From the UHGV virus genome UHGV-1987395: DNA of 13,355 nucleotides; one strand, 5' to 3'. Position 1 is the first letter of the stretch. Each line of letters begins with the position of its first letter. This document shows, one piece after another, positions 1-13,355 of this stretch. The stretch is from a virus. The position numbers and the translations under genes were made by a program. The notes below the pieces were generated by a model. It was not told where the DNA came from. It worked only from the letters and a program-made list of their open reading frames with translations, and did not search any database.

Positions 1-1
1 A

Positions 2-346
2 GATGAGCACGGTTATCCGATTCTGACAAGTGATGAGATGAACGCCAAATACAAAGGGATTCAGGCAACATTTAAGGATCGGAAGAGCATTAAACTCTCT
101 GAATTGCGAGATGCATTTTACGGGCCGGAGGTGATGGATAAAATTAAAGGCACCGTTGAGGGTAGAATCTGGAAAGAAGATGATTATTGGCATTTAACAG
201 AACAGGCCCTTAAGGTGGCTCAACATGTAGCTAAAAGAGGTAAAACAATTATCATCGATTATATTAGTCATGGCTATGATGCCCCGAAAGAAAGATTGTG
301 GAACAACTGCAAGCTTGTAAAAGGCGAATTAACCATTACAAAATAA
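2..346 (+). CDS. hypothetical protein, 5'-truncated at window edge
   Basis: Frame is open from position 2 to the TAA at 344-346; the first in-window ATG is at 38. No family recognised. Confidence 0.4.
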   Translation, partial: DEHGYPILTSDEMNAKYKGIQATFKDRKSIKLSELRDAFYGPEVMDKIKGTVEGRIWKEDDYWHLTEQALKVAQHVAKRGKTIIIDYISHGYDAPKERLWNNCKLVKGELTITK

Positions 347-386
347 ACATTCTTATTTTTTTACAGTATTCTAAAGGAAATTTAAA

Positions 387-533
387 ATGTATGGCGATTT
401 TGATTATTACCTGGAAAAGGAAAAATATTTTGAAGATGAACTATCACAACATTTTTCATATTGGGAAGAATATTGTGGTTGGTTAGCTGAAGATCCAGCA
501 GATGAAGAAAATGATTCTGACATCCCTTATTAA
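387..533 (+). CDS. small acidic hypothetical protein (48 aa)
   Basis: ATG at 387 preceded by AGGAAA 6 nt upstream; translation MYGDFDYYLEKEKYFEDELSQHFSYWEEYCGWLAEDPADEENDSDIPY is very D/E-rich. Below the 60-aa cut-off of the ORF track; preferred over the overlapping 298..486 ORF, which has no RBS. Confidence 0.35.
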   Translation: MYGDFDYYLEKEKYFEDELSQHFSYWEEYCGWLAEDPADEENDSDIPY

Positions 534-631
534 TTAATATCCCCTGTTATCCCCAAACAAACTAAATAAATAAACTAAGCACTAGAACTAGATTGATTGC
601 CCTGATCTTTTAAACGTTCGGAGAATTAATC

Positions 632-1117
632 ATGTTCAAATCTGATCTTTCTGATTCCCAATTTGAAAAACTGGTAGCACTGCAGAAATATCTCCCCAGT
701 GATGATCAACCAACACGACAGGCTAAACACTTATTAGTCGAGGGCTTTACCCCTGAATTCGTGGCGGAATATACAGGCGTTAAACTTGAGAAAGTCCAAA
801 AACTATATAATGAGTCCTGGAATCCACGGTGTCGAGTTCCCCTCAGTGTCTACAACGAAATAGATAGAGATAGAAATGTCTTCGAAGATCGCCGCCGCAA
901 ATCTCTTTTAATGTGGAATTGTGGGATGAATATTGAAGAGATAGCAAAAGAATTAAAAGTAACCTGCTTTCATGTCTGGGGCTTGTTGAGTGAAATCCTG
1001 CCACGTAAGGAGCTTAATCAACGTTTGCCTAAGCCCGGTAGTCGTGCTTATCGCGAATTTATATTCATCTACCGCCGCCATAGCAATAAAGTCCGGAAAG
1101 CAATGCAGCGCAAATAG
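632..1117 (+). CDS. putative HTH transcriptional activator (Mor/C-like or sigma region-4-like)
   Basis: GGAG 8 nt upstream of ATG; segment RRKSLLMWNCGMNIEEIAKELKVTCFHVWGLLSEI resembles, from memory, the C-terminal HTH of Mu Mor/C-family activators; basic C-terminus. Confidence 0.4.
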   Translation: MFKSDLSDSQFEKLVALQKYLPSDDQPTRQAKHLLVEGFTPEFVAEYTGVKLEKVQKLYNESWNPRCRVPLSVYNEIDRDRNVFEDRRRKSLLMWNCGMNIEEIAKELKVTCFHVWGLLSEILPRKELNQRLPKPGSRAYREFIFIYRRHSNKVRKAMQRK

Positions 1118-1205
1118 CTTATAGCCTTCACATATGCCGCAAGTTATTGATTCTGCCGTCCGGTAAATATGCCGGATGGCTCATATAAATTTTAAGGAAT
1201 TCCAA

Positions 1206-1649
1206 ATGTCTCAAATCGCTAAATTATTATCCCAGGTTATCAAAGCTATCGACGCTGAAGATTCAAAAGTTCGCCAGGATCTTTTAGATGGCAAGTTTAC
1301 CAACACCCTGGCATTTACCCGTGACAAAGAGCACTTCTTAAAACACAGACACCACGCTTTTGCTGAATGCAAGTCCGCTAATGGTGATGTTTTCTATGTC
1401 GATTTGGTGGTTATGGCATGTAGGCTGTGGATGATTCAGGACCTTATGCGCCAACACGGTGATGATCCTCTTATCAGCATGTGGAACAGCGCCCAGGATG
1501 GCTTTGTGATTGCTGCCTTATCCAAATCAATGATTGAGGCAGAAGGGGCAAGCCTTCAGAACATGGCAGATCTCTTTGAAATAAGCGTAGGAATGATGCA
1601 GACCATGCTCCAAGCTGTCAAACCTCTCAAACTGGTTAATCTTGATTAA
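1206..1649 (+). CDS. hypothetical protein
   Basis: ORF 1176..1649 in the track; ATG at 1206 has AAGGA 8 nt upstream, whereas ATG at 1176 has no clear SD. No family recognised. Confidence 0.45.
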   Translation: MSQIAKLLSQVIKAIDAEDSKVRQDLLDGKFTNTLAFTRDKEHFLKHRHHAFAECKSANGDVFYVDLVVMACRLWMIQDLMRQHGDDPLISMWNSAQDGFVIAALSKSMIEAEGASLQNMADLFEISVGMMQTMLQAVKPLKLVNLD

Positions 1650-1703
1650 GATATTGATAAATAAGCACTCCCCATTTTTTTGGGGGTGCATCAATGAGAG
1701 GAT

Positions 1704-2093
1704 ATGCCTATGAATATTGAAGAAATGATAGTTGAATTCGAAGAGGGTGATTTCCTGGAAGAAGGGGAGTTTAAATACTCCCGTTTTAAACAGGCGTTAT
1801 TTAGCAGCGATGATAAACCCCACGTTAGTGATCTTAATGATGATGATTTATGTCGCCTGGTGTGCACCCGCTTATATGAAGATGGAAAGTATACAGGCCA
1901 AAACTTTCCAAATCTCTATTTCAAAGCACAAACATTTGAGGAAGGGCAAAGAGTGAAAAACCTGGTCGATCAAATGCTGTCAGCCGGATATTTGCATAAA
2001 GAATTATTAAATCCTAAAGCTGAAAGCAAGCGCCATTATATTTTTGTGTGGTCTGTGGGGGATAAGTGCCCACTGAAGCGTAAAGGTAAATGA
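1704..2093 (+). CDS. hypothetical acidic protein; possible tail assembly chaperone
   Basis: GAGAGGA SD upstream of ATG; acidic N-terminus; lies two genes upstream of the tape measure gene, the usual position of chaperones. Call is positional only. Confidence 0.4.
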   Translation: MPMNIEEMIVEFEEGDFLEEGEFKYSRFKQALFSSDDKPHVSDLNDDDLCRLVCTRLYEDGKYTGQNFPNLYFKAQTFEEGQRVKNLVDQMLSAGYLHKELLNPKAESKRHYIFVWSVGDKCPLKRKGK

Positions 2094-2094
2094 T

Positions 2095-2280
2095 ATGAAT
2101 ACCTACGAAAAGATTTATCAAAAATTAAAAAGTGATAACAATGCTCCCGTCATCAAGGGCGGGGCTTCTTCCTCTGGTGACCTCTCAATCGAAGAGCTTG
2201 CGGAGAAATATAATATTGATAAAGAGGCCCTGAAAAGGGCTATTTCATTATCAAAATCTTTAAGACAGGGCGAGGTGTAA
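2095..2280 (+). CDS. hypothetical small protein (61 aa)
   Basis: ATG 1 nt after the stop of the upstream ORF (TGAtATG), suggesting translational coupling; ends 3 nt before the tape measure start. Confidence 0.35.
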   Translation: MNTYEKIYQKLKSDNNAPVIKGGASSSGDLSIEELAEKYNIDKEALKRAISLSKSLRQGEV

Positions 2281-2283
2281 GAG

Positions 2284-4404
2284 ATGGCAATGAAGGAAGT
2301 AGCCAAGCTAACAAACGTTATTTACTGGGATTCTGATAAATCCTCCTGGCGAAAAGAAGTTAAACGGCTTGAGGATTATAAAAAATCCTGGAAGAAAGCT
2401 ACCGACGATATAGCTAAAGCGGATTTTAAATCGAATCAGGCTGTGCTCAGAACACAAAGAACACGCGCTAAGGTGGAAGAGCAGATTGCCAGAGCTCAGA
2501 GGAAACAACAGGAAGCACAGAAGAAACAACGTGCTCAGGCTGTCAGCCGTCTGACCGGGGGCAATAATCCGGAGCTCTCCTCTATGCGCAAGTTCTATCA
2601 GCAGCAAGCCAGAGAGGCCGCCAGACAACAAAAACTGTTAGATCGTAGTGTTGGAGATGTTCAGCACAGAAAAGCACGTGTAGGGGCCAACAGTGCACGA
2701 ATCAGCAGTATGTTTGATGGCTCCCTGGTTGCTCAGTTCCAAAGCAGAATCCAGAGAGTTAATGCTGATTATGCTAAAGGGGCTATCAACCTGCAGACCT
2801 ATAATCAGAGGATGGCCCGACTCAGATCTGAAATGAAGATGGCAACAGCTGAAGCCGGAAAATTCCAGAGCAGACTAGATAAACTGGCATCAGGTGCCAG
2901 CAAGGTGCATGACAACCTGGGCAAAATCAACTCCACGCTGGGCAAGATAGCCATTGGCCTTACTGCCGCTGGCTGGGGTGTTCAGCGTGCTGTTAGTGGT
3001 GCTATGGGTAGCCTTGCAGATCGCAACAGTGCCTACTTCGGTTTGATGGCACAGAACAAGGATGATAAAGCCAAGACTGATCAGCAGATGGCTTTTATCA
3101 AGAACACAGCCTACACCTATGGGATGGATGAGCGGGAGATGCAAGGGGGCTACATGCGCTTTGCTGCAGCTACCCCCACCATGAAGGAATCTGATAAGCA
3201 GGCTCTCTTTGAGGCTATGGCTATTAAAGGCCGCTCAGTGGGTGCTACTGGCGAGCAACAGAACAGGGCGCTTGTTGCGGTCCAACAAATGGCTTCAAAG
3301 GGAAAAGTTATGGCGGAAGAGCTGCGGGGCCAACTGTCAGAAGCCTTTGCAGGCTCACAACAGGACTTCCAACAGGCCGCTATTGATGCCGGAATCATCA
3401 AAAATACCCAGGAATTCGATAAAGCCCTTAAAGATGGCAAAATCACCCTGGACAAACTTCTTCCCTCTCTGGTGAAAATCTGGGGTGCAGCAAAAGAAAC
3501 TAAAGCTTTTGCTGAATCCATGAAACAGCCAGAAGTAGCAATGCAGCGCATGAAAAACAGCTTTAACGAGCTGGCGATTCAGTTTATGGGTGTTGTGGAT
3601 CCTGCAGATGGCGTTATTAGCTTATCTGAATCTCTAATCTCCATCTTCGAAGACCTCACCACTGATATGGACGGCAGCGGGAGCGCGGCAAAACAGTTTG
3701 GTGAGGCAGTCGGTGCTGCCATGCGGGAGATCATGTATTGGGTAGGCTTCGCTAAGGGATATATTGAGGTCAAGGCTAAAGAGTTCGGCATGACCGGATC
3801 AGAGGTTGGCGAGCTTATCGGGAAACTGGTAGTCGGCTTAGCTGGTCTGAAAGTTATTACCACACTGCTTTCCCCTCTGACCGGATTTGTTTCACTTGTC
3901 ACTCAGCTGATAGCCTTGTTAGGTAAAATCCCTGGTATGAGCAAGCTTCTGGCTTCTGCCTCAGGTGGAACGGCAACAGGAGCAGCGGTCATCAGTGCAG
4001 GATCTAACGCTGAAAGAAGCTTCATTGATGGCAAGACGCAGGAAATGAGTAAGGAGAACTCAAAACAGGGTGCTTTGTTTGAGCTGGGAAGATTTGTCAG
4101 CAATGCTGGCGCACTGTTCACACCTGGCGGCGATACTGGTCCTTTGTTCGATCAGGTCAGAGGCTGGTTTAATAAAGGGCCAACATTGACAGTAGACACT
4201 GGCATCAGACCAACACCGACGGGTGGCATGGCTATCCAGAATGGTGGATATCAACCAGTCCAAGTAAATGTAGCCCCACAAGGTGAGATTTCCGGCAAAT
4301 GGGAGATAACCATCGATGAGGGGGGAATTGCCAGGGTAATTCAGAAGGAAGTCAGCGATCAGTTGGATTGGAAAGCCACACAGGAATCTAACCAGCTTTT
4401 CTAA
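2284..4404 (+). CDS. phage tail tape measure protein
   Basis: 706 aa; N-terminal Q/R/K/A-rich predicted coiled coil; central region (NKDDKAKTDQQMAFIKNTAYTYGMDEREMQGGYMRFAAATPTMKESDKQALFEAMAIKGRSVGATGEQQNRALVAVQQMASKG...) resembles the conserved tape-measure core domain; Gly-rich hydrophobic segment near the C-terminus. Confidence 0.7.
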   Translation: MAMKEVAKLTNVIYWDSDKSSWRKEVKRLEDYKKSWKKATDDIAKADFKSNQAVLRTQRTRAKVEEQIARAQRKQQEAQKKQRAQAVSRLTGGNNPELSSMRKFYQQQAREAARQQKLLDRSVGDVQHRKARVGANSARISSMFDGSLVAQFQSRIQRVNADYAKGAINLQTYNQRMARLRSEMKMATAEAGKFQSRLDKLASGASKVHDNLGKINSTLGKIAIGLTAAGWGVQRAVSGAMGSLADRNSAYFGLMAQNKDDKAKTDQQMAFIKNTAYTYGMDEREMQGGYMRFAAATPTMKESDKQALFEAMAIKGRSVGATGEQQNRALVAVQQMASKGKVMAEELRGQLSEAFAGSQQDFQQAAIDAGIIKNTQEFDKALKDGKITLDKLLPSLVKIWGAAKETKAFAESMKQPEVAMQRMKNSFNELAIQFMGVVDPADGVISLSESLISIFEDLTTDMDGSGSAAKQFGEAVGAAMREIMYWVGFAKGYIEVKAKEFGMTGSEVGELIGKLVVGLAGLKVITTLLSPLTGFVSLVTQLIALLGKIPGMSKLLASASGGTATGAAVISAGSNAERSFIDGKTQEMSKENSKQGALFELGRFVSNAGALFTPGGDTGPLFDQVRGWFNKGPTLTVDTGIRPTPTGGMAIQNGGYQPVQVNVAPQGEISGKWEITIDEGGIARVIQKEVSDQLDWKATQESNQLF

Positions 4405-4504
4405 TGTCCACTCTGTGGATTTGAGTTCTACTCAAACCTGCATAGCAGGCACTGATATTGTGATCAAAATCAATAAGTTAGCCTGACCGGGTAAACTCCA
4501 GGCA

Positions 4505-4537
4505 AGAAAAAAGCCCCTAAGTGTTAACAAAGGGGCT
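4505..4537 (-). terminator. candidate intrinsic terminator, minus strand
   Basis: 7-bp stem AGCCCCT (4512-4518) / AGGGGCT (4531-4537) with a 12-nt loop, followed on the minus strand by TTTTTT (plus A-run 4505-4511). Confidence 0.45.
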
Positions 4538-4957
4538 CTTCTCCGGTATCCTTTTGATGCGGGGCGAACCTGCTAACAAAAATCAACCTCTCGCGAGACT
4601 AATGTTAGCAGGTTGCCGGAAGGTAAGTCAACTCCGGTCTATAAACCTTAAAGCGACTATAAAATCGCCCCGCCAATTGTGATGATCCGACCTTTGAGGC
4701 GGGTCCGGTGCCCAGGGGGGTGCAGTGATGCACAAACCAGGCAACGATAAACAGGCTAACAGTGATAGCGGCGCTCAATCAGCGCACTAAATCCTAACCA
4801 GTCCGGGAAAGAGGCTGGCTCTATCGACCGCTCATGCACGGGACAATGCATACCTGATAAAGGATTCTCACAAGGGACCAATCGCGAGAAAAGAAGAGGA
4901 AAGGGGCTGATTTGTGGTGTATCACTACGGCCTCAAAAGACCTTCTATTGTCTTTTT

Positions 4958-5416
4958 TCAACCTCTCCCCACATTTGACCAGTATTTGATTGCACCGATC
5001 AAATCATCATAGTGGCGCATTGCATCATTGAAGCCTTTATAGCTTGCCCATTGTGGGGAAACCTTGTTATTGCTGAATTGCCCACTAATCAGGATAGTCT
5101 CCAGAATGTCGGCGTATCGCTTGCCAATTCGCTTTCTGACGGCCTCAGAGCTTCCACCCTTTACGATTGCATTAATCAGGGCTTTTGTGTGTCTCAGGCT
5201 CTCATAGAGCATTGCAGCGTGGGCAGATTCCATAAAGGAGCGCTTAGGCAGATCACCCCACCCCTCAGAGTGGATAGCTGCCAGTGTGGCGTAATTCAGG
5301 CCGCTATAGTGCTTTCCGTCATCCCAGCCAACCGCTACACCTTCCATCTGTGAGAGCTCTTTATGCAGCTTATCCATCATGCGCTTGTCTATGGTGCAAC
5401 GGACTTTCGGACTCAT
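4958..5416 (-). CDS. putative virion morphogenesis / head-tail joining protein
   Basis: 152 aa; ATGA start-stop overlap with the upstream gene; segment LAAIHSEGWGDLPKRSFMESA resembles, from memory, the motif of HK97 gp10-like head-tail joining proteins. Weak. Confidence 0.35.
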   Translation of the reverse strand: MSPKVRCTIDKRMMDKLHKELSQMEGVAVGWDDGKHYSGLNYATLAAIHSEGWGDLPKRSFMESAHAAMLYESLRHTKALINAIVKGGSSEAVRKRIGKRYADILETILISGQFSNNKVSPQWASYKGFNDAMRHYDDLIGAIKYWSNVGRG

Positions 5417-6216
5417 TTGTTGATCTCCGTGATGTCATCGAGCAACATGTTGGCCTTATCAATCATCGTTTCGTGGAACTCATTCGACACAACAGACTTA
5501 TCACCTGCGGCAATCTTTCCCGCTGCCTCTCCCTGTGCATATTCCCCGCGATGCTTAGCCCTGGTAGATTTCGTAGCAGCGTTGCCAGCGTTGCTACCCT
5601 CTTTAGCACTGTTAACAGCACCCTTTTGCTGTGTTTTATTCACCTTCTTACTGTTAGTGAAAACTCCGGCATTTTCGACCATCTTCACCTTGAAGGTGCG
5701 GAATTCTTCAAAGGTGCAATCAATAGTGATGCAGTCACCAGAGGAAGAGCTACGCTTAACTTCACATTTCGTCATGATGAAGTTCTCAAGGAGTCCGGCA
5801 TCTTCACTCACCAGGCTGACCAGCTGGCGCTTGTCTCTCATTTCCATAAGTGCCTGAACAGCGGCAGCAGGGCGCATAGATTCACGGGGATTATCTGGAT
5901 CAGTGTTCCGGTCGATGTAGTTCTCTTTCCGGATGATATAAGGGGAAGAGGTAATAATACCCGTAAAGCTGACAGATTTATCTTTAATGACGGCATGGTC
6001 TGACATGGTGGTGCCATCCTCGACCGCATAGCTCGATTTCTCAACAGGGAACGAATAGCTGACATCAGAGATAGAGTCAAAGAAGATAGCCACATTATCG
6101 GTATAGTTGAAGCCATCCATTATATTTTTGTTTTGTGAATATCCCCCACACATAACAGTGAATGCAGGAGATCTCGACTCAGCTTGTTTTGCAGCTGTCA
6201 GAGCATCACTAGCCAT
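5413..6216 (-). CDS. hypothetical protein, probable virion protein by context
   Basis: ORF 5413..6225 in the track; ATG at 6216 has GGAGG 10 nt upstream, while the ATG at 6225 sits 1 nt from the SD. In the capsid operon; no family recognised. Confidence 0.45.
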   Translation of the reverse strand: MASDALTAAKQAESRSPAFTVMCGGYSQNKNIMDGFNYTDNVAIFFDSISDVSYSFPVEKSSYAVEDGTTMSDHAVIKDKSVSFTGIITSSPYIIRKENYIDRNTDPDNPRESMRPAAAVQALMEMRDKRQLVSLVSEDAGLLENFIMTKCEVKRSSSSGDCITIDCTFEEFRTFKVKMVENAGVFTNSKKVNKTQQKGAVNSAKEGSNAGNAATKSTRAKHRGEYAQGEAAGKIAAGDKSVVSNEFHETMIDKANMLLDDITEINK

Positions 6217-6321
6217 ATTAAACATGCCTCCAAAATGAATCTTTTCGTTGCCCTGCTTAAAATCTGCAGAAAATACAGGGCAGTTATTCGTTAGAATCGC
6301 TTATAGCTCTTCCCGAGAGCG

Positions 6322-6573
6322 TTATTTTGCAAAACGATTATGGGCATTCAGGGCTTTTTTGCGGTCCTGGGCTTGTTTGCGTGCAATAAAATGTTCGAAA
6401 GTCTCGGCCCAGGTGCATTTATTATATTCACGGTATTTATGCATAGCCTGGCGGCTAACGTCATAGCAGGCGGCAAATGTGGAGATACGCAGGAATTCCG
6501 GCAGATCCTCGTCATCGATATGGATAATATCAAAAGGCACGTCGTCACGGTCGCCGTATAAAACAATTTTCAT
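6322..6573 (-). CDS. hypothetical small protein (83 aa)
   Basis: ATG at 6573 with GAGGTG 6 nt upstream; the 6582 start in the track is GTG. Lies just downstream of the post-capsid terminator hairpin. Confidence 0.4.
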   Translation of the reverse strand: MKIVLYGDRDDVPFDIIHIDDEDLPEFLRISTFAACYDVSRQAMHKYREYNKCTWAETFEHFIARKQAQDRKKALNAHNRFAK

Positions 6574-6605
6574 AAAATACACCTCAAAAACTTAAGACGG
6601 GGATA

Positions 6606-6670
6606 ACAAAAAAGGGAAGAGGGAAAGACCTATCCCCGATCTCTCACCTCTTCCCTTTGCTTTTATTTGG
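6606..6670. terminator. bidirectional intrinsic terminator/attenuator between capsid gene and downstream gene
   Basis: 9-bp stem GGGAAGAGG (6614-6622) / CCTCTTCCC (6647-6655); flanked by an A-run 6608-6613 (a T-run on the minus strand) and a T-rich tract 6656-6668 on the plus strand. Confidence 0.55.
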
Positions 6671-6686
6671 CCTTCGAAGAAGGACC

Positions 6687-7730
6687 TTATTTAGCCTTGG
6701 CTTTTGCCAGAGCAGCGGCGGCGGAGTTTTTAACACTCACTTTAACCACAACTTCGGGCATCATGTTCATGAAAGCATAAGAGGATTCAACGAAGATTTC
6801 TCGTTTGCCTCTGGACTCTTCCATATACATGAAAGCTTCACGTGCAGCGCCGTTTGCAAGCTTCAGGTTGCGAGCGCAAGGGCCGAAAAATTGAGTATAA
6901 ACGCCCACCATATCGCCTAACGCATGCGGCTGGAACTGTGGGACCAGATAAGCAGTATTCTCTGGCAGACTATCCATTTGCACCACACGCAGAGCTAAGC
7001 CCGGAATGCGGAAGGTCGGGAAGCCCGGCAGAATATCCTCAGGGAACATCAGACCTTTGTCGGTAATATTCTGATTGCCGAACAACAGCACTTTACGGAG
7101 CAGTTCATCAGTCTGAATAGCGGCGAACACCTCAGCACGGCAGAACAGGGTGAAACCACGCAGAGCGCGAACGACACCACGCTGTTTAACCTTGCTCAGT
7201 GCAACCAGGTCCTGCAGTTGTTTGAGAATATCTTGAGCTAGATCCATTTCAGAGGTGGACTGTTCCACGCCCAGCAGTTCGCACACATTCAGCTCTTTAC
7301 CCTTGGTGAGGATAATTTTGTTCTCAAAGAGAGCAAGCTGGCGTGCTTCTTCGTGGGTCTGGCGTAAGCCTTCGCCCAGTTGAATAACACGACGAGCGGT
7401 TACAGACTCTAAATTCTCTTCGGAATCTTTGCCAGGAACACGAATACCCTGCCAGTCAGAAGGATAAATAGCACTTGATGCGGCAGTGAACGCCATATCA
7501 CCCGTGCCCGTTTCACGCTCATCTGCGGTAATGGTCGCCATCTGTTCACCGTAGCGCGGATACTGACCGAAAGCGGTTTGTTTCACCTGGCGAACTTTGT
7601 CATATTCAAATTTAAAGGTATTGCACAGAGCAGTAGTGTTGAAGATATCCATTGCTGAAATAATCTGGTTATCCAGCGGGATGTCTTTAATCAAGCCACA
7701 CAGATCGCGGACTTCGAATTCTTTTTTCAT
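6687..7730 (-). CDS. phage major capsid protein (E-family-like)
   Basis: 347 aa from ATG 7730 with AAGGAGG 6 nt upstream (the 7736 start in the track is TTG); size and position directly after a decoration-like gene match the usual decoration + E-family capsid pairing; Ala/Lys-rich C-terminal tail. Confidence 0.6.
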   Translation of the reverse strand: MKKEFEVRDLCGLIKDIPLDNQIISAMDIFNTTALCNTFKFEYDKVRQVKQTAFGQYPRYGEQMATITADERETGTGDMAFTAASSAIYPSDWQGIRVPGKDSEENLESVTARRVIQLGEGLRQTHEEARQLALFENKIILTKGKELNVCELLGVEQSTSEMDLAQDILKQLQDLVALSKVKQRGVVRALRGFTLFCRAEVFAAIQTDELLRKVLLFGNQNITDKGLMFPEDILPGFPTFRIPGLALRVVQMDSLPENTAYLVPQFQPHALGDMVGVYTQFFGPCARNLKLANGAAREAFMYMEESRGKREIFVESSYAFMNMMPEVVVKVSVKNSAAAALAKAKAK

Positions 7731-7741
7731 CTCCAACCTCC

Positions 7742-8077
7742 TTATTGTGCAATTCGCAAATCGCCATTGCTGGCAGCGATAACAGCGGCTAAGCCTTCTT
7801 TATCCACGTAGGCCGGATTGATGTAGCAACCTTTGTTGGCAACAACGATAAAAGCATCACCAACCTCAGCACGTTCTACAACCAGCAGCGGAGTTTTACC
7901 GGTGTGCGTTGCTTTAACGAAGGTCTCAACCTCGCCAGCCTCAGTCACCACAACAACAGTGCCAGCCGGAATCTCAGCCTTAACTTTGTTTTTAACTTCA
8001 ACGTCGCGAATACTAAATTGCTCATCTGCGGCGTATGAAATGATGTGTCCGCGTGTGCGGATAGTCATATCTCTCAT
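7742..8077 (-). CDS. putative head decoration protein (DUF2190-like)
   Basis: 111 aa; AGGTGA 4 nt upstream of ATG; Val/Gly/Ala-rich beta-type sequence; sits directly upstream of the capsid gene, with its stop overlapping the capsid SD. Confidence 0.5.
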   Translation of the reverse strand: MRDMTIRTRGHIISYAADEQFSIRDVEVKNKVKAEIPAGTVVVVTEAGEVETFVKATHTGKTPLLVVERAEVGDAFIVVANKGCYINPAYVDKEGLAAVIAASNGDLRIAQ

Positions 8078-8567
8078 TTGATCACCTGCGATTTAAATTA
8101 ACTCCCCTCAAAGAGTTCCGGTATAACCTCTCAAACCACGACAGGCTCGGGCCGAAAAGTTATGCCGGAAATCTAAAGGGAAATTGATACAAGGAGAGGG
8201 AGATAGCCCCGCACCGTAGCCAAGCGGGGGCTATTCCACATGGGGAAACCGACAACAGTCGGATGATAGTTCACAGTATGGTTACGGTTACTAGAGAGCA
8301 CTATCACGAAAGGCACTCCCCCGAATCAGTTCAGGCTGCGGTCACATCAGCGGGGAAATACCTTTCGGGATAGCTACCCACACAGAAAACCCGCAAAAGA
8401 AAACTGTGTGGATAACTAGCCCAATAGGAGAATTAATCGACCACTCAACGATGATCAGGGTAGTGTTATTTATAAGGCGGCACCGCTACCTGGTCGCCTT
8501 TACTTTGGAGGAAAATACGGCAAATCAAGATCTTCTCAAATGATATTGATTCCATACTATACTGTAT

Positions 8568-8596
8568 ATTATATCAGTATTTACTCACATTGTCAA
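8568..8596 (-). promoter_or_regulatory. consensus sigma70 promoter reading leftward toward the capsid operon
   Basis: On the minus strand: TTGACA (plus 8596-8591), 17-nt spacer, TATAAT (plus 8573-8568). Perfect match at both hexamers with optimal spacing. Confidence 0.6.
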
Positions 8597-8750
8597 CACC
8601 TTGATTATATAAATTCTAATAATTAGCGTAGTAACGGTATTTTCAGACCTCTATCAATCCCATCAATACGTCACCCCCACCCTTTAGATGCATACATCCG
8701 ACCTACTTTGTAGGCTTGGCGTACTGCCAAGGTCGCAGCTATGCGACTCC

Positions 8751-8783
8751 TATCTATCACCACTTTATAAAGCTTGATAGATA
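8751..8783. promoter_or_regulatory. dyad-symmetric operator-like site
   Basis: TATCTATCA (8751-8759) and TGATAGATA (8775-8783) are perfect inverted repeats, concentric with an inner perfect palindrome CTTTATAAAG (8763-8772); overlaps a candidate -35 TTGATA at 8774-8779. Confidence 0.4.
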
Positions 8784-8926
8784 TCTTTTGATCAATATCA
8801 ATGTTTTCCAGAGATTTACCCGGCTATAGTTCGAATCAAGGAAGGGGAGCATTGATAGAGACACCCAAAGGGGTGACTGAAAGTCACCTGGCATAGCCAG
8901 TGAAAGCACCCAACCGAACAAACAAA

Positions 8927-8944
8927 TCAACTTCTCGCAAAAGG
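8927..8944 (+). promoter_or_regulatory. conserved 5'-UTR motif, copy 1
   Basis: TCAACTTCTCGCAAAAGG ends 8 nt before ATG 8953; near-identical to the copy at 9446-9464. Confidence 0.4.
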
Positions 8945-8952
8945 TGATAGTT

Positions 8953-9075
8953 ATGGGTATCAAGAACAGTGCCAGCGCATGGCAAAAGGCCAGGTTTCAT
9001 CACCCACACATGGTCAAGGCAATTGAGGTGGTTGGAGTTTTAGCCCTGATGTTAGCTCTGTGTGTGGAGGTGTGA
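8953..9075 (+). CDS. possible small membrane peptide (40 aa)
   Basis: AAGGTGA SD; translation MGIKNSASAWQKARFHHPHMVKAIEVVGVLALMLALCVEV has a C-terminal hydrophobic helix; preceded by the conserved TCAACTTCTCGCAAA motif. Below the track cut-off. Confidence 0.25.
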   Translation: MGIKNSASAWQKARFHHPHMVKAIEVVGVLALMLALCVEV

Positions 9076-9076
9076 G

Positions 9077-9157
9077 ATGGGTAAAGGAGGCAAAGAATTT
9101 TTAATAGGTCTGGCAGTCTTAGATTTTGTATTAATCATCATTGAGCGGAGTTTATGA
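9077..9157 (+). CDS. possible small membrane peptide (26 aa)
   Basis: GGAGGTG SD 4 nt upstream; translation MGKGGKEFLIGLAVLDFVLIIIERSL; its stop overlaps the next start as ATGA. Confidence 0.2.
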   Translation: MGKGGKEFLIGLAVLDFVLIIIERSL

Positions 9158-9414
9158 CGGGAACTAAAGATATTAAGAGACTGAGGGAAGAGCTGATAGC
9201 TGAAATTAAAGCTAAGGCAAAGCAAATGGAGATAGCCGCACAAATGGATGTAGCGGAACAGATGTACAAGATGGTTGAGGAGGGAACGCCACGACAGGTT
9301 ATAGCAAAAACCTTCGGTGTGGGGATCGCCACCGTGCACAGAAGGCTGAAAGCCTATGCCGACTACCACAATATCGAGAGAAAGGAGGATGGGAGATTTA
9401 AGAAGAATAAATAG
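9154..9414 (+). CDS. small DNA-binding protein with resolvase/invertase-type HTH
   Basis: 86 aa; charged helical N-terminus; C-terminal GTPRQVIAKTFGVGIATVHRRLK resembles, from memory, the Hin/Gin C-terminal HTH (GHPRQQLAIIFGIGVSTLYRY); no recombinase catalytic domain. Confidence 0.5.
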   Translation: MTGTKDIKRLREELIAEIKAKAKQMEIAAQMDVAEQMYKMVEEGTPRQVIAKTFGVGIATVHRRLKAYADYHNIERKEDGRFKKNK

Positions 9415-9445
9415 TGTGAACAGTCCAATAGGTTATTAACTAAAT

Positions 9446-9464
9446 TCAACTTCTCGCAAAGGGG
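9446..9464 (+). promoter_or_regulatory. conserved 5'-UTR motif, copy 2
   Basis: TCAACTTCTCGCAAAGGGG ends 7 nt before ATG 9472; same motif as 8927-8944. Confidence 0.4.
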
Positions 9465-9471
9465 TACCACT

Positions 9472-10059
9472 ATGAACATTAAAACTATCATTGCAGCCAT
9501 CACCATTGCCTTTAGTGCCAACACTGCAGCTATTGATGTTAATTTATTTCAGAAGATGACTTGCGAAGATAAATTAGTTGCCATGGATAAGGGGCTAGAA
9601 GCCACGCATAATGGGGAACAGTTTCATTTCTCCTTGAAGAATCTTATCTTGCCCCTGGATTCTGCCGCACAGGTATATGCAACATTGGGTAAATTTGAGA
9701 AGCCGGAAATTGACCTGCAGGGCGTGAGAGCGAAGATCACCAAAAGAAATGAAAGCATTTGTGATATAGCGGTTACGGCCCTTATGACAGATGATGAAAA
9801 AACGATTATAGCTACATGCAAAGATAGCAACGACAACGAACGATTCTTTAAGATCACCCACAACAGGCCCGTTTCTTTCTACTCTAATGCCACAATGGGC
9901 GCGGGTATGCAGTGGCTGAAGAGAGCTAAAGTAACTGAGGTTAATGCTGATGACGATTTATCCTATGAATACGGTTTTATTTCCAATTATATGGCGTGGC
10001 ACCTGAAAAAATGCGGCATCAATGGTCAGGCATACGACAATGGATTTTGGTTTTTCTAA
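9472..10059 (+). CDS. secreted/periplasmic protein of unknown function
   Basis: N-terminal signal peptide MNIKTIIAAITIAFSANTAA with an AxA-like cleavage site; AGGGG SD; followed by an intrinsic terminator at 10081-10106; ends in aromatic FWFF. Confidence 0.55.
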   Translation: MNIKTIIAAITIAFSANTAAIDVNLFQKMTCEDKLVAMDKGLEATHNGEQFHFSLKNLILPLDSAAQVYATLGKFEKPEIDLQGVRAKITKRNESICDIAVTALMTDDEKTIIATCKDSNDNERFFKITHNRPVSFYSNATMGAGMQWLKRAKVTEVNADDDLSYEYGFISNYMAWHLKKCGINGQAYDNGFWFF

Positions 10060-10080
10060 CCTATTAAGTTAATCCCACCT

Positions 10081-10106
10081 GGGGGCCATCACGGCCCCTT
10101 TTTATT
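10081..10106 (+). terminator. intrinsic terminator after the secreted-protein gene
   Basis: GGGGCC (10082-10087), loop ATCAC, GGCCCC (10093-10098), then TTTTTATTT. Confidence 0.65.
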
Positions 10107-10108
10107 TA

Positions 10109-10164
10109 TCCCCTATTTAACCCCTATTTAATGGGTATTTAATGCCTATTTATTGATTTAATGG
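10109..10164. repeat. five tandem copies of an 11-bp unit (consensus about CCCTATTTAA)
   Basis: TCCCCTATTTAA / CCCCTATTTAA / TGGGTATTTAA / TGCCTATTTAT / TGATTTAATGG in direct succession immediately after the terminator; 11-bp period is about one helical turn. Confidence 0.55.
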
Positions 10165-11566
10165 TTTTGGGCATTGTTGACAGTGTAAGAGAGAGGATGT
10201 AACCCTTTTTTGTAATACTAATAAAATCAATAGCTTAGCTCAATTGGCCTTTTCTCTGTTTTTGTCAAATTTAACATACCCTAAAAAACTGCAAAATCTG
10301 GCTGCAAGATTATCTGCAGCTGGATTTCTTACACCTCATTTTGTGGTATCACCCTGACTAGTTTGTGCATAAAATGAACAGTTTTTAACATTTCCTCTTC
10401 ACCTGGTAACCACACAAAAAGCTAAAAACGAGGCACAGATAATCTTAGAGGCCTGTTTTCTTGTTATCACTCTAGAAACGTCGTAGAGATGATTTTAATG
10501 AAAGATGACCTACCCTATTACACCCCTATTTTTTGTTATCACAATTGCATCCTGTGCGGTGTATGGCTATGTGCTGAAAGCGGTCTTATGTGTGGGTGTC
10601 AGAAATATCCATTAGCGGTATTAATACCCGTCGGAGATTCGTCTGAGGTGCCAGGCAGGCGCTCCCCCACCTCCCTTTTTTCTTCTAACAATTCTCAAAT
10701 ATCACACCACTGCCGACCACGTTACTACTCTGTTAATTCTTAAGCTTTGCTGTATGTTGTGCACATTATTTATTCAGGTGGCTGTACGTAAATTCTGTGC
10801 CCACTGATCATGATTTTTAAATCAGATTTTGTAGTTCGCTTTATTAGTGTAGATAAGATCTATTATGTTAAATGCAATTTTCCCAACCCTTCAAATCAAT
10901 GACTTACATGTAAGTATGCACTAACACCCCACACAGCACATTAGACGTATAGATGGCTATATCCCACATTTTTGATTGTTTTGTAGTCATTCCCCTGATC
11001 ATTTAACCAGTATAGTTTGTTCTCTGTAGACCACAAAATCGGAATTTACATCTGATTAACATAATCTGTTAGCATGATCACTATTACCCACACAACAATA
11101 ACCCCATGCAAGCCTCTTTAGGCAATTTATCGGCGTGTTGGTGTGAACAGTCTTTCATGTTCTTTATGAATTCATGACTGCAAGGAATGTATTCATTGTC
11201 CTGTGTGGGGGAAGGATGGACTGCCCCAGGGGCCATAGTTATGACACCCGGTCAACATAACTGTCGATAAAATCAACGGGTGTTGGTATGCATATTTCCC
11301 ACACATGAGAGAAAATCAAAGCAAAGAGAGAGGAGAGAGGTTTGCTAGTCAAAATAGGTCAATTGACGGCTAATACAGAGTAAAAAATCAGATGCAATCA
11401 CTCCCCCACCTGTTGGGATTTCCTACAACCCCTTTCAGTCATACTCAGGCACCACACCCCGGTAAATATTACCGCACTAACCTGTAAAGAATTTTCACAC
11501 CTGTGTGTTTATACAGTCATACTCTCCTGTTTTGCAGTCATTGCACCCATGATACACAGCCCCTAA

Positions 11567-11676
11567 CCTGTCAAAATATTTTACTACTTAGCCACTATAG
11601 CTATGCATACCTGTAAAATATTTTTACTACTACCTGTCAAAATACTTTACTACTACCTGTAAAAATATTTGACACT
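11567..11676. repeat. iteron-like 22-bp direct repeats (four copies, plus a degenerate copy at 11481-11500)
   Basis: CCTGTCAAAATATTTTACTACT (11567-11588), CCTGTAAAATATTTTTACTACT (11610-11631), CCTGTCAAAATACTTTACTACT (11633-11654), CCTGTAAAAATATTTGACACT (11656-11676); the last three are spaced 23 bp start to start. Confidence 0.6.
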
Positions 11677-11789
11677 AATAGATAAAGTAATAGACCACAC
11701 AAGATCCCCCCTAACCCCCCAGGGGGAATGGGGAGGGATCAGAGAGTGGGGAAGGTTTTCTAAGGGAAAAGCTTAACCCACAAATGAAA

Positions 11790-11818
11790 GCCTAAAGAGC
11801 ATTAGCGACTCTTTAGGC
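11790..11818. repeat. perfect 10-bp inverted repeat (hairpin or operator)
   Basis: GCCTAAAGAG (11790-11799), 9-nt spacer, CTCTTTAGGC (11809-11818); the half-site CTCTTTAGGCAAT recurs at 11114-11126. Confidence 0.5.
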
Positions 11819-12258
11819 AATATGTGTGTGGGTCACTCTGTGACTTTAGCTATACAGCTAAACCGACTACGTCGGCCTGTGTGTGGGGGTGACAATGTAT
11901 TCCATACATGACACGTCACCCAATTGTGTGTGGTCCGGCGAATGCGTCAGCATGAGGCCCACATGTGGACCGCTGCCGAAAGCTTGCCAGCGCCGGAAGG
12001 AGGCAGCAAAGAGTCTCCCGCGCGGGTGCACGCACACACATACAAAGGATACACTCATAAATCGAAAATAAGCCACCTAAATGGCCTTCTGGCTGCATTA
12101 ACTAGTGTGAGTAGTGCAATTGCATTACCTGACCTCTAAATCGCGTTAGAATCGATTTTAGAGCGCTTAAGGCAAAAAGTGCCCTCCCTTGTGGGCTTGC
12201 TTGTGTCTGCTGTGCAGGCTATGGCACCTATAGCACACCTAAATGATAATAATTCTCA

Positions 12259-12277
12259 TTGACAATTGGTTGACAAT
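12259..12277. promoter_or_regulatory. tandem TTGACAAT boxes (candidate operator or overlapping -35 elements)
   Basis: TTGACAAT at 12259-12266 and 12270-12277, 11 bp apart; a third copy at 12449-12456 forms the -35 of the downstream promoter. Confidence 0.4.
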
Positions 12278-12448
12278 GTGATAAGATTATAAATAGGGGG
12301 AGAAACAGATCCGGAGGTCAATGTGGAAATTACTGATGCAATAGCGATCATCAACCTGGCTGTACTGTGGTGCGGTGTTGCCTACATAGCCGGAGTAACT
12401 GCAATCGACAATCTTGAAGAAAAAATGATAGATAAATACAAAAAGATT

Positions 12449-12477
12449 GTTGACAATTTGACGAATGTCTGATAAAA
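12449..12477 (+). promoter_or_regulatory. sigma70-like promoter upstream of the 71-aa gene
   Basis: TTGACA (12449-12454), 17-nt spacer, TAAAAT (12472-12477). Confidence 0.5.
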
Positions 12478-12605
12478 TATAAAGCATAGGGTAATTCTCA
12501 TCATAGTGAATTTCCTTTAGTAGACTGGCGGGGGCTTGTCTTAAGTTCCCGTTTCTTTTTAATCATATATCGCACAGGTTAGTGAGCTAACAGGAGGCTT
12601 ATACT

Positions 12606-12821
12606 ATGGCTAAAACCGGACCGATCAGCCAGTTGGTAAACTGGACTACTGACGAAATCGTCGAGAACGTACTTAAGGGGAACTTCCGCAAAACTTCCGT
12701 TTATGCATTCATTCGTAAACATAAAGGAGAATATCCACACATTGAAGAAGCAATTTTAAAACTAAATTGCATTCGCCTTGAGCGGGAACTGGCTAAATAC
12801 ACCAATAACATTAATAAATAA
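12606..12821 (+). CDS. hypothetical small protein (71 aa), possible DNA-binding regulator
   Basis: AGGAGG 8 nt upstream of ATG; lies about 130 nt downstream of a consensus-like promoter; no family recognised. Confidence 0.45.
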   Translation: MAKTGPISQLVNWTTDEIVENVLKGNFRKTSVYAFIRKHKGEYPHIEEAILKLNCIRLERELAKYTNNINK

Positions 12822-12835
12822 TTATGGGGGAATTA

Positions 12836-13355
12836 TGGCAAGTAATTACGGGGAAAATTTTACTCCCCTTTTTAAACGTTTCATCAAATACATTTTTAAA
12901 AATCCGATTGCAAAAACTACAACCAATAAAGAAAGATTTCACTTAAACTTGTTGGAAATGACAATTTACGGTGAGATGGCAAGTTTTAATGCTGCAGGTT
13001 GTGAAATATTTATCTCTGAACAGAGATTAGCAGACGATTATGATGTTTCAAGACCGACAGTTATTAACTCGATTAAATCTCTAGAAAATGCCGGGCTTAT
13101 TTCAATAGTTAAAAGTAAAGGCAAATCTAATCATTACAAACTGCTAATTACCCCTGATCAGCTTGGCAAGATGTGTGATGAGCAGGGTATTAAAACCTCC
13201 GACAGTGTGGGATCTAGTAAAGAGGCCCCCGATAATCAACAGGAAGCCCCAAAACAAGCCACACAGCAAGCTAAAAAGGCCGAGGTGGTGCAATTGCCTA
13301 CCCAACCTAAGAACGAGCGCAGAGAGCGCTTTAGAGACGCTGGCAAACGTGAGAA
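12836..13355 (+). CDS. winged-HTH DNA-binding protein, putative replication initiator or regulator (3'-truncated)
   Basis: Open from ATG 12836 to the window end; segment ISEQRLADDYDVSRPTVINSIKSLENAGLISIVKSKGKSNHYKLL is a classic winged-HTH; followed by a low-complexity Q/K/A/E-rich linker. Confidence 0.5.

What the first reader, a model, noticed from the sequence alone, without database searches (positions are those of the whole stretch)
11481..11676. Iteron-like 22-bp direct repeats at two-helical-turn spacing
Four well-conserved copies of CCTGT(C/A)AAAATATTTTACTACT plus a degenerate fifth; the last three are spaced 23 bp start to start. This is the classic iteron arrangement of theta-replicon origins and some partition or packaging sites. 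A wHTH protein gene lies about 1.2 kb downstream. Copies abut without unique spacers, so this is not a CRISPR array.
Basis: partly seen in the sequence, partly recalled or inferred. Interest (0 to 1): 0.55.

Follow-up and report, generated by a model that had tools for sequence, protein, structure and literature searches.

The report
Replication-initiator binding repeats of a satellite plasmid
The repeats are real and are almost certainly the binding sites (iterons) of the element's own replication-initiator protein, most likely forming a lambda-style origin of replication of a 13-kb phage-satellite-like E. coli plasmid; this is a known kind of feature, with an unusually clear natural record of protein and DNA site changing together.

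Summary
Observation confirmed. Four 23-bp copies of ACCTGT(C/A)AAAATATTTTACTACT lie at 11566, 11609, 11632 and 11655 (spacing 43, 23, 23). The "fifth copy" at 11480 is a separate, conserved site of another sequence type.

The window is a complete 13.36-kb circular Escherichia element. It carries capsid, tape-measure and Dit-like genes but no terminase or portal. It is cut inside a 288-aa winged-helix gene (12835..346) that resembles phage replication initiators.

I compared 21 related elements, 91-96% identical overall. All keep the geometry: four phased sites next to a conserved AT-rich tract and a G/C palindrome. The site sequence falls into 9 classes. Each class pairs with one class of recognition helix in the initiator's N-terminal domain (153/153 concordant pairs among the first 18; 0 of 100,000 permutations). 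The wing, the C-terminal domain, neighbouring genes and the DNA in between do not track the site type. Arg in the helix goes with CGG in the half-site.

Best reading: a lambda-ori-like iteron origin lying 1.16 kb upstream of its initiator gene. Protein binding is strongly inferred. Origin activity is inferred from homology, layout and the lack of any alternative, and is untested.

Verdict: a new member of a known kind, of moderate interest. The single heterologous "orphan" sites and stand-alone N-domain genes remain unexplained.

The parts
11408..11430 (+). Orphan single site of heterologous 'D' specificity (ACCTGTTGGGATTTCCTACAACC)
   Evidence: The PWM built from cognate D arrays scores it 27.0; the cognate D minimum is 30.6. 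The same site is seen in relatives.
11456..11478 (+). Orphan single site of heterologous 'C' specificity (ACCCCGGTAAATATTACCGCACT)
   Evidence: PWM score 33.1, above the weakest genuine C-array copy at 29.2.
11480..11502 (+).
   Evidence: It is present in A-, B-, C- and E-type elements with the same sequence.
11566..11588 (+). Cognate iteron 1 (ACCTGTCAAAATATTTTACTACT)
11609..11631 (+). Cognate iteron 2
11632..11654 (+). Cognate iteron 3
11655..11677 (+). Cognate iteron 4; its right arm is replaced by the conserved flank
11675..11702 (+). Conserved A+T-rich, purine-skewed tract CTAATAGATAAAGTAATAGACCACACAA abutting the array; candidate unwinding element (short)
   Evidence: Conserved across all array types. 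AT fraction 0.7-0.83 in 30-bp windows.
11703..11740 (+). Conserved G/C-rich palindrome GATCCCCCCTAACCCCCCAGGGGGAATGGGGAGGGATC, bounded by two GATC sites
   Evidence: It forms the stable hairpin in the ssDNA fold.
12835..13355 (+). 5' part of the initiator (rep) gene: wHTH N-domain (aa 39-103, nt 12949-13143), recognition helix aa 72-82 (nt 13048-13080), disordered linker
   Evidence: The joined ORF is 100% identical to database protein P0001.
1..346 (+). 3' part of the rep gene (C-terminal domain), continuing across the window junction

Best explanation
The four 23-bp repeats (11566-11677) are the cognate binding sites (iterons) of the element's own 288-aa replication initiator, encoded 1.16 kb downstream. 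The N-terminal winged-helix domain reads each partly dyad-symmetric site, probably as a dimer, through its recognition helix (aa 72-82). Four phased sites assemble a nucleoprotein complex that destabilises the adjacent conserved AT-rich tract (11675-11702). The C-terminal domain then recruits host replication proteins. On this view the region is the plasmid's origin and works like the lambda ori/O 'O-some'. The repeat-helix pair exists in at least 9 interchangeable specificities in otherwise near-identical elements. These probably let related elements avoid cross-recognition. Shown here: the repeats, the conserved geometry and the one-to-one co-variation with the helix. Inferred: physical binding, dimer stoichiometry, unwinding, origin activity and the reason for diversification.
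For: (1) The repeats are far beyond chance. (2) The window is a complete autonomous circular element. All matches in 5,426 complete E. coli genomes lie on plasmids of 13.2-13.7 kb plus one trimer, none on a chromosome. More than 100 Rep clusters lie almost all on 13.3-14.4-kb contigs. So an origin must exist on the element. (3) The only replication-type gene is the wHTH protein. It hits phrog_270 'replication initiation protein' at E 4.7e-12 and about ten more initiator, O-like or DnaD-like PHROGs. The best named viral fold matches are 'Replication initiator protein', 'Replication protein' and 'DnaD' at E 1e-5 to 1e-3. (4) Relatives keep the geometry (+43, +23, +23, abutting CTAATAGATAAAG and the G/C palindrome) but swap the unit sequence. 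(5) Only two islands are about 100% identical within an array type and 33-70% identical between types: the repeat island and the Rep N-domain. DNA between them is conserved across types. In pair D (CP035869 vs CP074841) the island is 0.99 and the N-domain 0.97 identical, but the zone between is 0.64 and 0.91, the linker 0.56 and the C-domain 0.46. A D-type and a C-type element share a 0.98-identical C-domain but differ in N-domain (0.55) and island (0.24). (6) Predictions tested on newly fetched contigs held. E-helix with D-wing gave an E array, and D-helix with E-wing gave a D array. B, E and F replicates held, as did three more SRPT-helix elements with A arrays. Two G-type Reps each bring their own distinct 3-copy inserted array. 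Concordance is 153/153 pairs, with 0 of 100,000 permutations reaching it; the wing gives only 136/153. (7) Arg at helix position 6 (types C, E, F) goes with CGG in the half-site; Ile, Val or Ala (A, B, D, D') goes with TGT, CTG or TGC. (8) The layout matches annotated lambda ori: four 18-bp dyad iterons at spacing 20, 24 and 23, then an A-rich asymmetric AT region (PMC4488673, PMC5043065). (9) There are no repeats inside rep and no cognate sites at promoters.
Against: There is no experimental or read-depth evidence of initiation at this site. The AT-rich tract is only about 28 bp, against 40-49 bp in lambda. No DnaA box lies within 300 bp. Rep has no Pfam Phage_rep_O, Rep_3 or RepA_N hit and no NCBIfam family. 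PDB fold hits are generic wHTH repressors, so the initiator identity rests on PHROG and BFVD similarity to the N-domain. The AF2 model is mediocre (pLDDT 65). The window's own A-type unit has only weak outer dyad symmetry, so dimer binding is less certain for this allele. G-type elements keep an intact C or D array without a cognate Rep. Arrays can therefore persist without being the active origin. The related elements are not independent samples, so the permutation figure overstates significance.
Confidence: 0.72

Rival explanations
1. Rep binds the array, but the array is a copy-control or incompatibility locus rather than the origin. It would titrate or handcuff Rep like P1 incA or extra iteron clusters, and initiation would occur elsewhere, for example in the hairpin-rich zone 11780-12230 or the 11-bp repeats at 10110-10165.
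For: The co-variation only shows binding, not initiation. G-type elements retain arrays with no cognate Rep. Other repeat- and hairpin-rich non-coding DNA exists nearby. The AT-rich tract is short.
Against: No second cluster of cognate sites exists anywhere in the element that could be the true origin. The array has the canonical origin layout and abuts a conserved AT-rich tract. The G-type Reps' own arrays were inserted at this same locus.
Confidence: 0.12
2. The array is a partition centromere, and the wHTH protein is a centromere-binding adaptor (TubR/tubC- or ParR/parC-like) that segregates the plasmid.
For: Tandem phased repeats bound by a small DNA-binding protein are typical of type II and III centromeres. 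TubR appears among weak PDB sequence hits at E 0.23.
Against: No ParA, ParM or TubZ-type NTPase appears in any protein of the element by Pfam, PHROG or NCBIfam. The protein is 288 aa with a second folded domain and matches replication-initiator families.
Confidence: 0.05
3. The array is an operator array. The wHTH protein would be a transcriptional repressor, as some database names say, controlling a promoter in the non-coding region.
For: Pfam hits are HTH_11, HTH_36 and GntR. One relative is named 'winged helix-turn-helix transcription repressor'. PDB fold hits are repressors. A weak promoter-like match lies at 11494-11523.
Against: The good promoter matches (12259-12287, 12450-12478) carry no cognate site. 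The array itself overlaps no promoter-like site, and promoter-like matches in the region are no more frequent than in shuffles. Four phased sites next to an AT tract, far from any gene start, are not an operator layout.
Confidence: 0.06
4. The array is a packaging recognition site (pac or cosB-like) for a helper-phage small terminase, or a set of RNA hairpins.
For: The element looks like a phage satellite lacking a terminase. Terminase sites are often repeated. Several unit types are palindromic.
Against: A site read by a helper's terminase should be conserved among elements that share structural genes. Instead it is the most variable spot and tracks the element's own Rep helix. A- and B-type units lack outer dyad symmetry, so hairpins are not conserved. 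Rfam finds nothing.
Confidence: 0.03

Closest known systems
Bacteriophage lambda ori / O protein (O-some) and the ori-O specificity variants of lambdoid phages
   Same: Both have four initiator-binding repeats of about 18-23 bp with internal dyad symmetry. Start-to-start spacing is about 20-24 bp: lambda 20, 24, 23, here 43, 23, 23. In both, an A+T-rich strand-asymmetric tract and then an inverted repeat follow. The repeats are read by the amino-terminal half of a two-domain initiator (PMC4488673, PMC5043065). Related replicons carry different matched iteron/N-domain specificities; for lambdoid phages this is from my own knowledge, and Grosschedl & Hobom 1979 and Moore et al. 1979 are listed in the references of PMC5043065. 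Several PHROG 'replication initiation O-like' families hit the N-domain.
   Different: The array lies 1.16 kb upstream of the gene, not inside it. There is no Pfam Phage_rep_O hit and no P-like helicase-loader gene. The AT tract is shorter. The C-terminal domain is unrelated and comes in two alleles. Single heterologous orphan sites sit upstream.
Iteron plasmids with Rep_3/RepA-type initiators (P1 oriR/incA, F, R6K, pPS10, RK2)
   Same: Phased repeats are bound by a replicon-encoded wHTH initiator next to an AT-rich region, and extra sites are used for control (PMC5043065).
   Different: Those iterons are mostly asymmetric direct repeats bound by monomers, usually with DnaA boxes (PMC5043065). 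Here the sites are partly palindromic, no DnaA box is near, and there is no Rep_3 domain.
RepA_N / DnaD-like initiators of Firmicutes plasmids (e.g. pSK41 RepA)
   Same: A two-domain initiator whose DnaD-like wHTH N-domain binds iterons as a dimer, with a variable, host-specific C-domain (from my own knowledge). Here there is a weak Pfam DnaD_N hit (E 0.0065), hits to PHROG 'DnaD-like helicase loader' families, and the top PDB fold hit 4pql, 'N-terminal domain of DNA binding protein' (E 0.018).
   Different: None of the matches is significant at family level. There is no RepA_N Pfam hit, and the host is Escherichia.

Membership tests
Iteron-type replication origin (lambda ori class) | Three or more phased repeats of about 17-23 bp, beyond chance | tested here: met
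   Four copies at 43, 23 and 23 bp; 0.00 expected by chance.
Iteron-type replication origin (lambda ori class) | The repeats are the specific binding sites of an initiator encoded by the same replicon | tested here: met
   The evidence is indirect. Recognition-helix class and repeat class agree one-to-one in 21 elements (153/153 pairs among the first 18). Physical binding was not tested.
Iteron-type replication origin (lambda ori class) | Adjacent A+T-rich unwinding region | tested here: inconclusive
   A conserved tract of about 28 bp, about 75% AT and purine-skewed, lies at 11675-11702. It is shorter than lambda's 40-49 bp (PMC4488673).
Iteron-type replication origin (lambda ori class) | The initiator is a homologue of known replication initiators | tested here: inconclusive
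   PHROG initiator, O-like and DnaD-like families hit at E 5e-12 to 1e-3, and BFVD folds named 'Replication initiator protein' hit at E 7e-5. There is no Pfam Phage_rep_O, Rep_3 or RepA_N hit, no NCBIfam family, and only generic wHTH hits in the PDB.
Iteron-type replication origin (lambda ori class) | The origin lies inside the initiator gene (lambda-specific) | tested here: not met
   There are no direct repeats within rep. The array is 1157 bp upstream.
Iteron-type replication origin (lambda ori class) | The region is necessary and sufficient (with Rep) for autonomous replication | not testable with these tools
   This needs a mini-replicon or origin-mapping experiment.
Rep_3-type iteron plasmid origin | Rep_3 (PF01051) initiator and DnaA boxes next to the iterons | tested here: not met
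   No Rep_3 hit. The nearest DnaA-like 9-mers with up to 1 mismatch are at 11262 and 11084, more than 300 bp away.
Plasmid partition centromere (parC/parS/tubC) | A partner NTPase (ParA/ParM/TubZ) encoded with the centromere-binding protein | tested here: not met
   No such domain in any ORF product of the element.
CRISPR array | Repeats separated by unique spacers of similar length | tested here: not met
   The last three units abut directly and there is one 20-bp gap only.
Terminase recognition site (pac/cosB) | Conserved among elements packaged by the same machinery and bound by a terminase small subunit | tested here: not met
   The array is the most variable segment among elements with near-identical structural genes, and no terminase gene is present. 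Binding itself is not testable here.

The most novel reading that the evidence does not exclude
The origin region is more than an origin: it is a competition module between sibling satellite plasmids. Each element carries, upstream of its own four-site array, single high-quality binding sites for the initiators of other specificity classes. In the window these are a D-type site at 11408, a C-type site at 11456 and the X site at 11480. Some relatives also encode a stand-alone initiator N-domain of a foreign (G-type) specificity with no cognate site in cis. These could act as decoys and dominant-negative binders that titrate or block a rival element's initiator. That would drive the rapid diversification of helix-iteron pairs. 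The alternative is that the orphans are simply fossils of past array replacements.
Probability: 0.15. Interest if true: 0.7.

Novelty: new member of a known kind. Interest (0 to 1): 0.45.

Why it matters
It locates the probable origin and names the initiator of a widespread Escherichia/Shigella element of 13-14 kb. I found no description of this element in the searchable literature. It looks like a plasmid-borne phage satellite. The family also offers a ready-made natural series: at least 9 matched recognition-helix/DNA-site pairs on a near-isogenic background, with natural wing and C-domain swaps as internal controls. That series could serve as a compact model for how a winged-helix protein and its DNA site co-evolve, for example Ile77 to Arg going with TGT to CGG. 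It could also be a source of mutually orthogonal origin/initiator pairs for E. coli. The iteron origin itself is textbook biology.

Tried and rejected
- Rfam scan of the whole window at E <= 1: only a sub-threshold ctRNA hit at 4502-4542, which is a terminator-like hairpin.
- tRNA/tmRNA search: none.
- Megablast against phages: no match. tblastn of Rep against phages: no match.
- Rep relatives in one-genome-per-species contigs and in IMG/VR: none confirmed, so context had to come from complete E. coli plasmids and from contigs found by exact protein look-up.
- PDB sequence profile search: only chance-level wHTH hits. PDB Foldseek: generic wHTH repressors. NCBIfam: nothing above cut-off. The afdb50 fold library was unavailable.
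- DnaA boxes and IHF sites near the array: none.
- Lambda-style origin inside rep: no repeats.
- Autoregulatory cognate sites at promoters: none.
- RNA-hairpin reading of the units: rejected, because A- and B-type units lack outer symmetry.
- Other proteins as the binder: the 71-aa, 49-aa, HTH_7 86-aa and 195-aa proteins are shared between different array types (accessions; identities).
- The wing of the wHTH as specificity determinant: natural helix/wing chimeras follow the helix.
- GC skew as an origin marker: it is dominated by gene orientation in a 13-kb element, so I did not use it.
- Literature searches by concept and by accession found no description of the family; CP043822 is only listed in a strain table.

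Full report
**1. Observation**

The region 11480-11677 contains a five-member family of 23-nt direct repeats:

| Copy | Coordinates | Identity to reference | Sequence |
|---|---|---|---|
| 1 | 11480-11502 | 70% | ACCTGTAAAGAATTTTCACACCT |
| 2 | 11566-11588 | reference | ACCTGTCAAAATATTTTACTACT |
| 3 | 11609-11631 | 83% | |
| 4 | 11632-11654 | 96% | |
| 5 | 11655-11677 | 74% | |

- Start-to-start spacing is 86, 43, 23, 23.
- The 12-nt left half-site with up to 1 mismatch is found 4 times against 0.17 expected.
- The description is therefore accurate and the repeats are not chance.

**2. What the window is**

- The window matches ten circular E. coli "plasmids" of 13.2-13.7 kb at 91-96% identity, one of them assembled as a 39.6-kb trimer.
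- All matches in 5,426 complete E. coli genomes are on plasmids and none is on a chromosome.
- Joining the window's end to its start gives an intact 288-aa ORF (12835..13355 + 1..346).
- That ORF is 100% identical over its full length to a database protein found on 13.5-kb contigs (P0001). The window is therefore one complete circular element, cut inside this gene.
- The element encodes a major head protein (phrog_29), a tape measure protein (phrog_5255, Pfam TMP_3), a Dit-like tail protein and a tail-completion/Neck1 protein. It has no terminase or portal.
- These structural proteins are only about 23-27% identical to those of large myoviruses.
- It therefore looks like a plasmid-borne phage satellite. 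I found no description of it in the searchable literature.
- About 2.5 kb (10060-12600) has no annotated gene in any record, and the repeats lie in the middle of it.

**3. The downstream protein**

- Pfam sees only wHTH domains (HTH_11, HTH_36, weak DnaD_N).
- PHROGs places residues about 20-170 in "replication initiation protein" (phrog_270, E 4.7e-12) and in about ten further initiator, O-like or DnaD-like families.
- An AlphaFold2 model built on 36 homologues (mean pLDDT 65) shows a wHTH at 39-103, a disordered linker at 120-171 and a folded C-terminal domain at 172-288.
- Against solved structures the model matches only generic wHTH proteins (best: 4pql, E 0.018).
- Against predicted viral structures, the named top hits are "Replication initiator protein", "Replication protein" and "DnaD" at E 1e-5 to 1e-3.
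- NCBIfam and a PDB sequence-profile search add nothing.
- The initiator identity is thus reasonably but not strongly supported by homology alone.

**4. The key result: co-variation**

Relatives keep the architecture but replace the unit sequence. The architecture is one cognate copy, then +43, +23, +23, abutting the conserved CTAATAGATAAAGTAATAGA tract and a G/C palindrome.

| Type | Repeat unit | Recognition-helix segment |
|---|---|---|
| A (the window) | ACCTGTCAAAATATTTTAC | SRPTVINS or SRPTIIKA |
| B | ACTACTGAAGATTTCTCAC | SDRKIIES |
| C | ACCCCGGTAAATATTTCCG | TEKTVRSA |
| D | ACCTGTTGGAATTTCCCACAGGT | DRGKIVSA |
| D' | ATATGCGGGAATTTCCAACATAT | DRGKIASA |
| E | ACCCCGGAAGATTTCTCCGGT | SDRKIRDS |
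| F | CCAGGTAAAAATTACCGAGG | TPKTVRTA |

- Two unrelated G types are described under "Tests on newly fetched contigs" below.
- Most units are imperfect palindromes about a central A/T core, with 9-10 of 11 positions symmetric in D, D' and E. Symmetry is weaker in the window's own type A.
- The helix assignments in the table come from aligning the initiators.

**5. Why this is not simple linkage**

- A sliding comparison of nine aligned elements shows only two islands that are about 100% identical within a type and 33-70% identical between types. These are the repeat island (11409-11668) and the Rep N-domain (12898-13235).
- Segments conserved across types lie between them (11738-11821 and 12226-12513).
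- In the D pair (CP035869 vs CP074841) the identities are:

| Segment | Identity |
|---|---|
| Repeat island | 0.99 |
| Rep N-domain | 0.97 |
| Hairpin zone between them | 0.64 |
| 49-aa zone | 0.91 |
| Rep linker | 0.56 |
| Rep C-domain | 0.46 |

- Conversely, CP074841 (D) and AP045055 (C) share a 0.98-identical C-domain but differ in N-domain (0.55) and repeat island (0.24).
- The 71-aa, 49-aa, HTH_7 and 195-aa proteins are shared between array types.

**6. Tests on newly fetched contigs**

The big protein collection holds 104 Rep clusters, with 20 distinct helix-wing segments that look like modular combinations. I fetched contigs for new combinations:

| Rep | Helix / wing | Array found | Locus |
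|---|---|---|---|
| P0074 | E helix + D wing | E | L017 |
| P0059 | D helix + E wing | D | L019 |
| P0014 | SRPTIIKA helix + E-like wing | A | L015 |
| P0082 | DRGKIASA helix | new D' array | L020 |
| P0100 | F helix | F | L023 |
| P0053 | B helix | B | L025 |
| P0099 | E helix | E | L026 |
| P0042, P0065 | SRPTIIKA helix | A | L027, L028, L029 |

Two elements have an unrelated G-type Rep:
- Each keeps a standard array: C-type in CP020521 and D-type in L024.
- Each also carries, inserted just beyond that array, its own three-copy array at spacing 33/44.
- The inserted array differs with the helix: LQPNIARA goes with TATCAACATATCAAT.TGATATA, and LRPHAVRA goes with TAGATGTACGTAATTGGTACA.

Over the first 18 elements:
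- Helix class and array class agree in 153 of 153 pairwise comparisons, and 0 of 100,000 permutations reach this.
- Wing class agrees in only 136 of 153.
- The elements are related, so the permutation count overstates independence. The natural chimeras and the D pair are the stronger argument.

A simple rule emerges: helices with Arg at position 6 (C, E, F) have CGG in the half-site, and those with Ile, Val or Ala (A, B, D, D') have TGT, CTG or TGC. This is what an Arg-guanine contact would give, and it is an inference.

**7. Origin or something else?**

For an origin:
- The element replicates autonomously and has no other replication gene.
- No other cluster of cognate sites exists, and none lies inside rep.
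- The layout matches annotated lambda ori. Lambda has four 18-bp dyad iterons starting 20, 24 and 23 bp apart, followed by an A-rich strand-asymmetric AT region and an inverted repeat.
- The literature describes four 19-bp inverted-repeat iterons bound by O dimers through the amino-terminal half, next to a 40-49-bp AT-rich region (PMC4488673, PMC5043065).
- The G-type Reps' own arrays were inserted at this same locus.

Against, or untested:
- The AT tract is only about 28 bp.
- No DnaA box lies within 300 bp.
- G-type elements show that arrays can persist without a cognate Rep.

Rivals:
- Partition is unlikely because there is no NTPase gene.
- An operator role is unlikely because the good promoters at 12259-12287 and 12450-12478 lack cognate sites.
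- A terminase site is unlikely because the array is the most variable spot of the element.
- A role purely in copy control, with initiation elsewhere, remains the main rival.

**8. Unexplained extras**

- Upstream of the array every element carries single sites of other specificities.
- These orphan sites score as well as genuine cognate copies. In the window the C-type site at 11456 scores 33.1 against a cognate minimum of 29.2, the D-type site at 11408 scores 27.0, and the X site is at 11480.
- Some relatives encode a stand-alone G-type Rep N-domain of 165-172 aa without G-type sites in cis.
- These may be fossils of array replacement or tools of competition between sibling elements. I could not distinguish the two.

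**9. Verdict**

- The array consists of the cognate iterons of the element's initiator. It is most likely a lambda-ori-like origin placed 1.16 kb upstream of rep.
- My estimates: about 0.9 that Rep binds the array, and about 0.7 that the array is the origin.
- This is a new member of a known kind. Its interest lies in the clean natural series of matched protein-DNA specificities and in the apparently undescribed satellite-like plasmid family that carries it.

Noticed in passing
window 1-13355 (whole element): The window is a complete 13.36-kb circular Escherichia/Shigella element. It has its own major capsid, tape measure, Dit-like and tail-completion genes but no terminase or portal, so it looks like a plasmid-borne phage satellite. 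More than 100 Rep clusters lie on 13.3-14.4-kb contigs. Its structural proteins are only about 23-27% identical to those of large myoviruses. I found no description in the searchable literature.
   Followed up: partly
window 10589-11887, also 6145-6152, 8377-8384, 9003-9010: The 8-mer TGTGTGGG occurs 10 times, against about 0.4 expected, mostly in non-coding DNA. In 11780-12040 it alternates with short stable hairpins (for example GCCTAAAGAG...CTCTTTAGGC at 11790-11818 and GGGGTGAC...GTCACCC at 11886-11922). Relatives keep such 'motif + hairpin' modules but shuffle them; this zone is only 36-64% identical even within one array type. Function unknown.
   Followed up: partly
window 10110-10165: Five tandem 11-bp units (CCCCTATTTAA, CCCCTATTTAA, TGGGTATTTAA, TGCCTATTTAT, TGATTTAATGG) lie directly after the terminator of the 195-aa gene. 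The one-helical-turn phasing suggests bent DNA or a protein-binding array.
   Followed up: no
window 10160-11400: About 1.2 kb without any annotated gene is 94-98% identical among all relatives, which is more conserved than most of their genes. Only an unannotated 84-aa ORF (10489-10743) and a 50-aa ORF lie in it, and Rfam finds nothing.
   Followed up: no
L017 2985-3482; L019 2964-3482; L020 2132-2632; L025 2964-3482; CP035869 (L010) 6451-6816; L026 3104-3490: Some relatives carry an extra gene just upstream of rep that encodes only an initiator N-domain. It is G-type (165-172 aa) or standard-type (about 126-128 aa) and has no C-terminal domain. The G-type copies have no G-type repeats in cis. 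They may be trans-acting regulators or inhibitors.
   Followed up: partly
L013 (CP020521) 13006-13118 and 13235-13347; L024 1924-2030: Elements with a G-type Rep retain an intact standard array (C or D type) that has no cognate Rep. They also carry their own 3-copy array in an insertion of about 430 bp right after it, which is a snapshot of origin-module replacement.
   Followed up: yes
window 1-346 and relatives' rep 3' halves: The Rep C-terminal domain exists in two very different alleles (...ERFRDAGKREKDEHGYPILTSDEM... versus ...PRRGRPVKDVTDGGWIALGESEA...). These assort independently of the N-domain, which suggests that it contacts a different variable partner.
   Followed up: no
window 8078-9153: There is a second gene-free stretch of about 1.1 kb between the 111-aa gene and the HTH_7 gene. 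It contains a perfect DnaA-box 9-mer (8407, minus strand) and two TGTGTGGG motifs.
   Followed up: no
L002 (CP043822) 1-39610: This 39.6-kb 'plasmid' is a head-to-tail trimer of the 13.5-kb element in which one unit differs (a truncated capsid region). It is either a true multimer or an assembly artefact.
   Followed up: no
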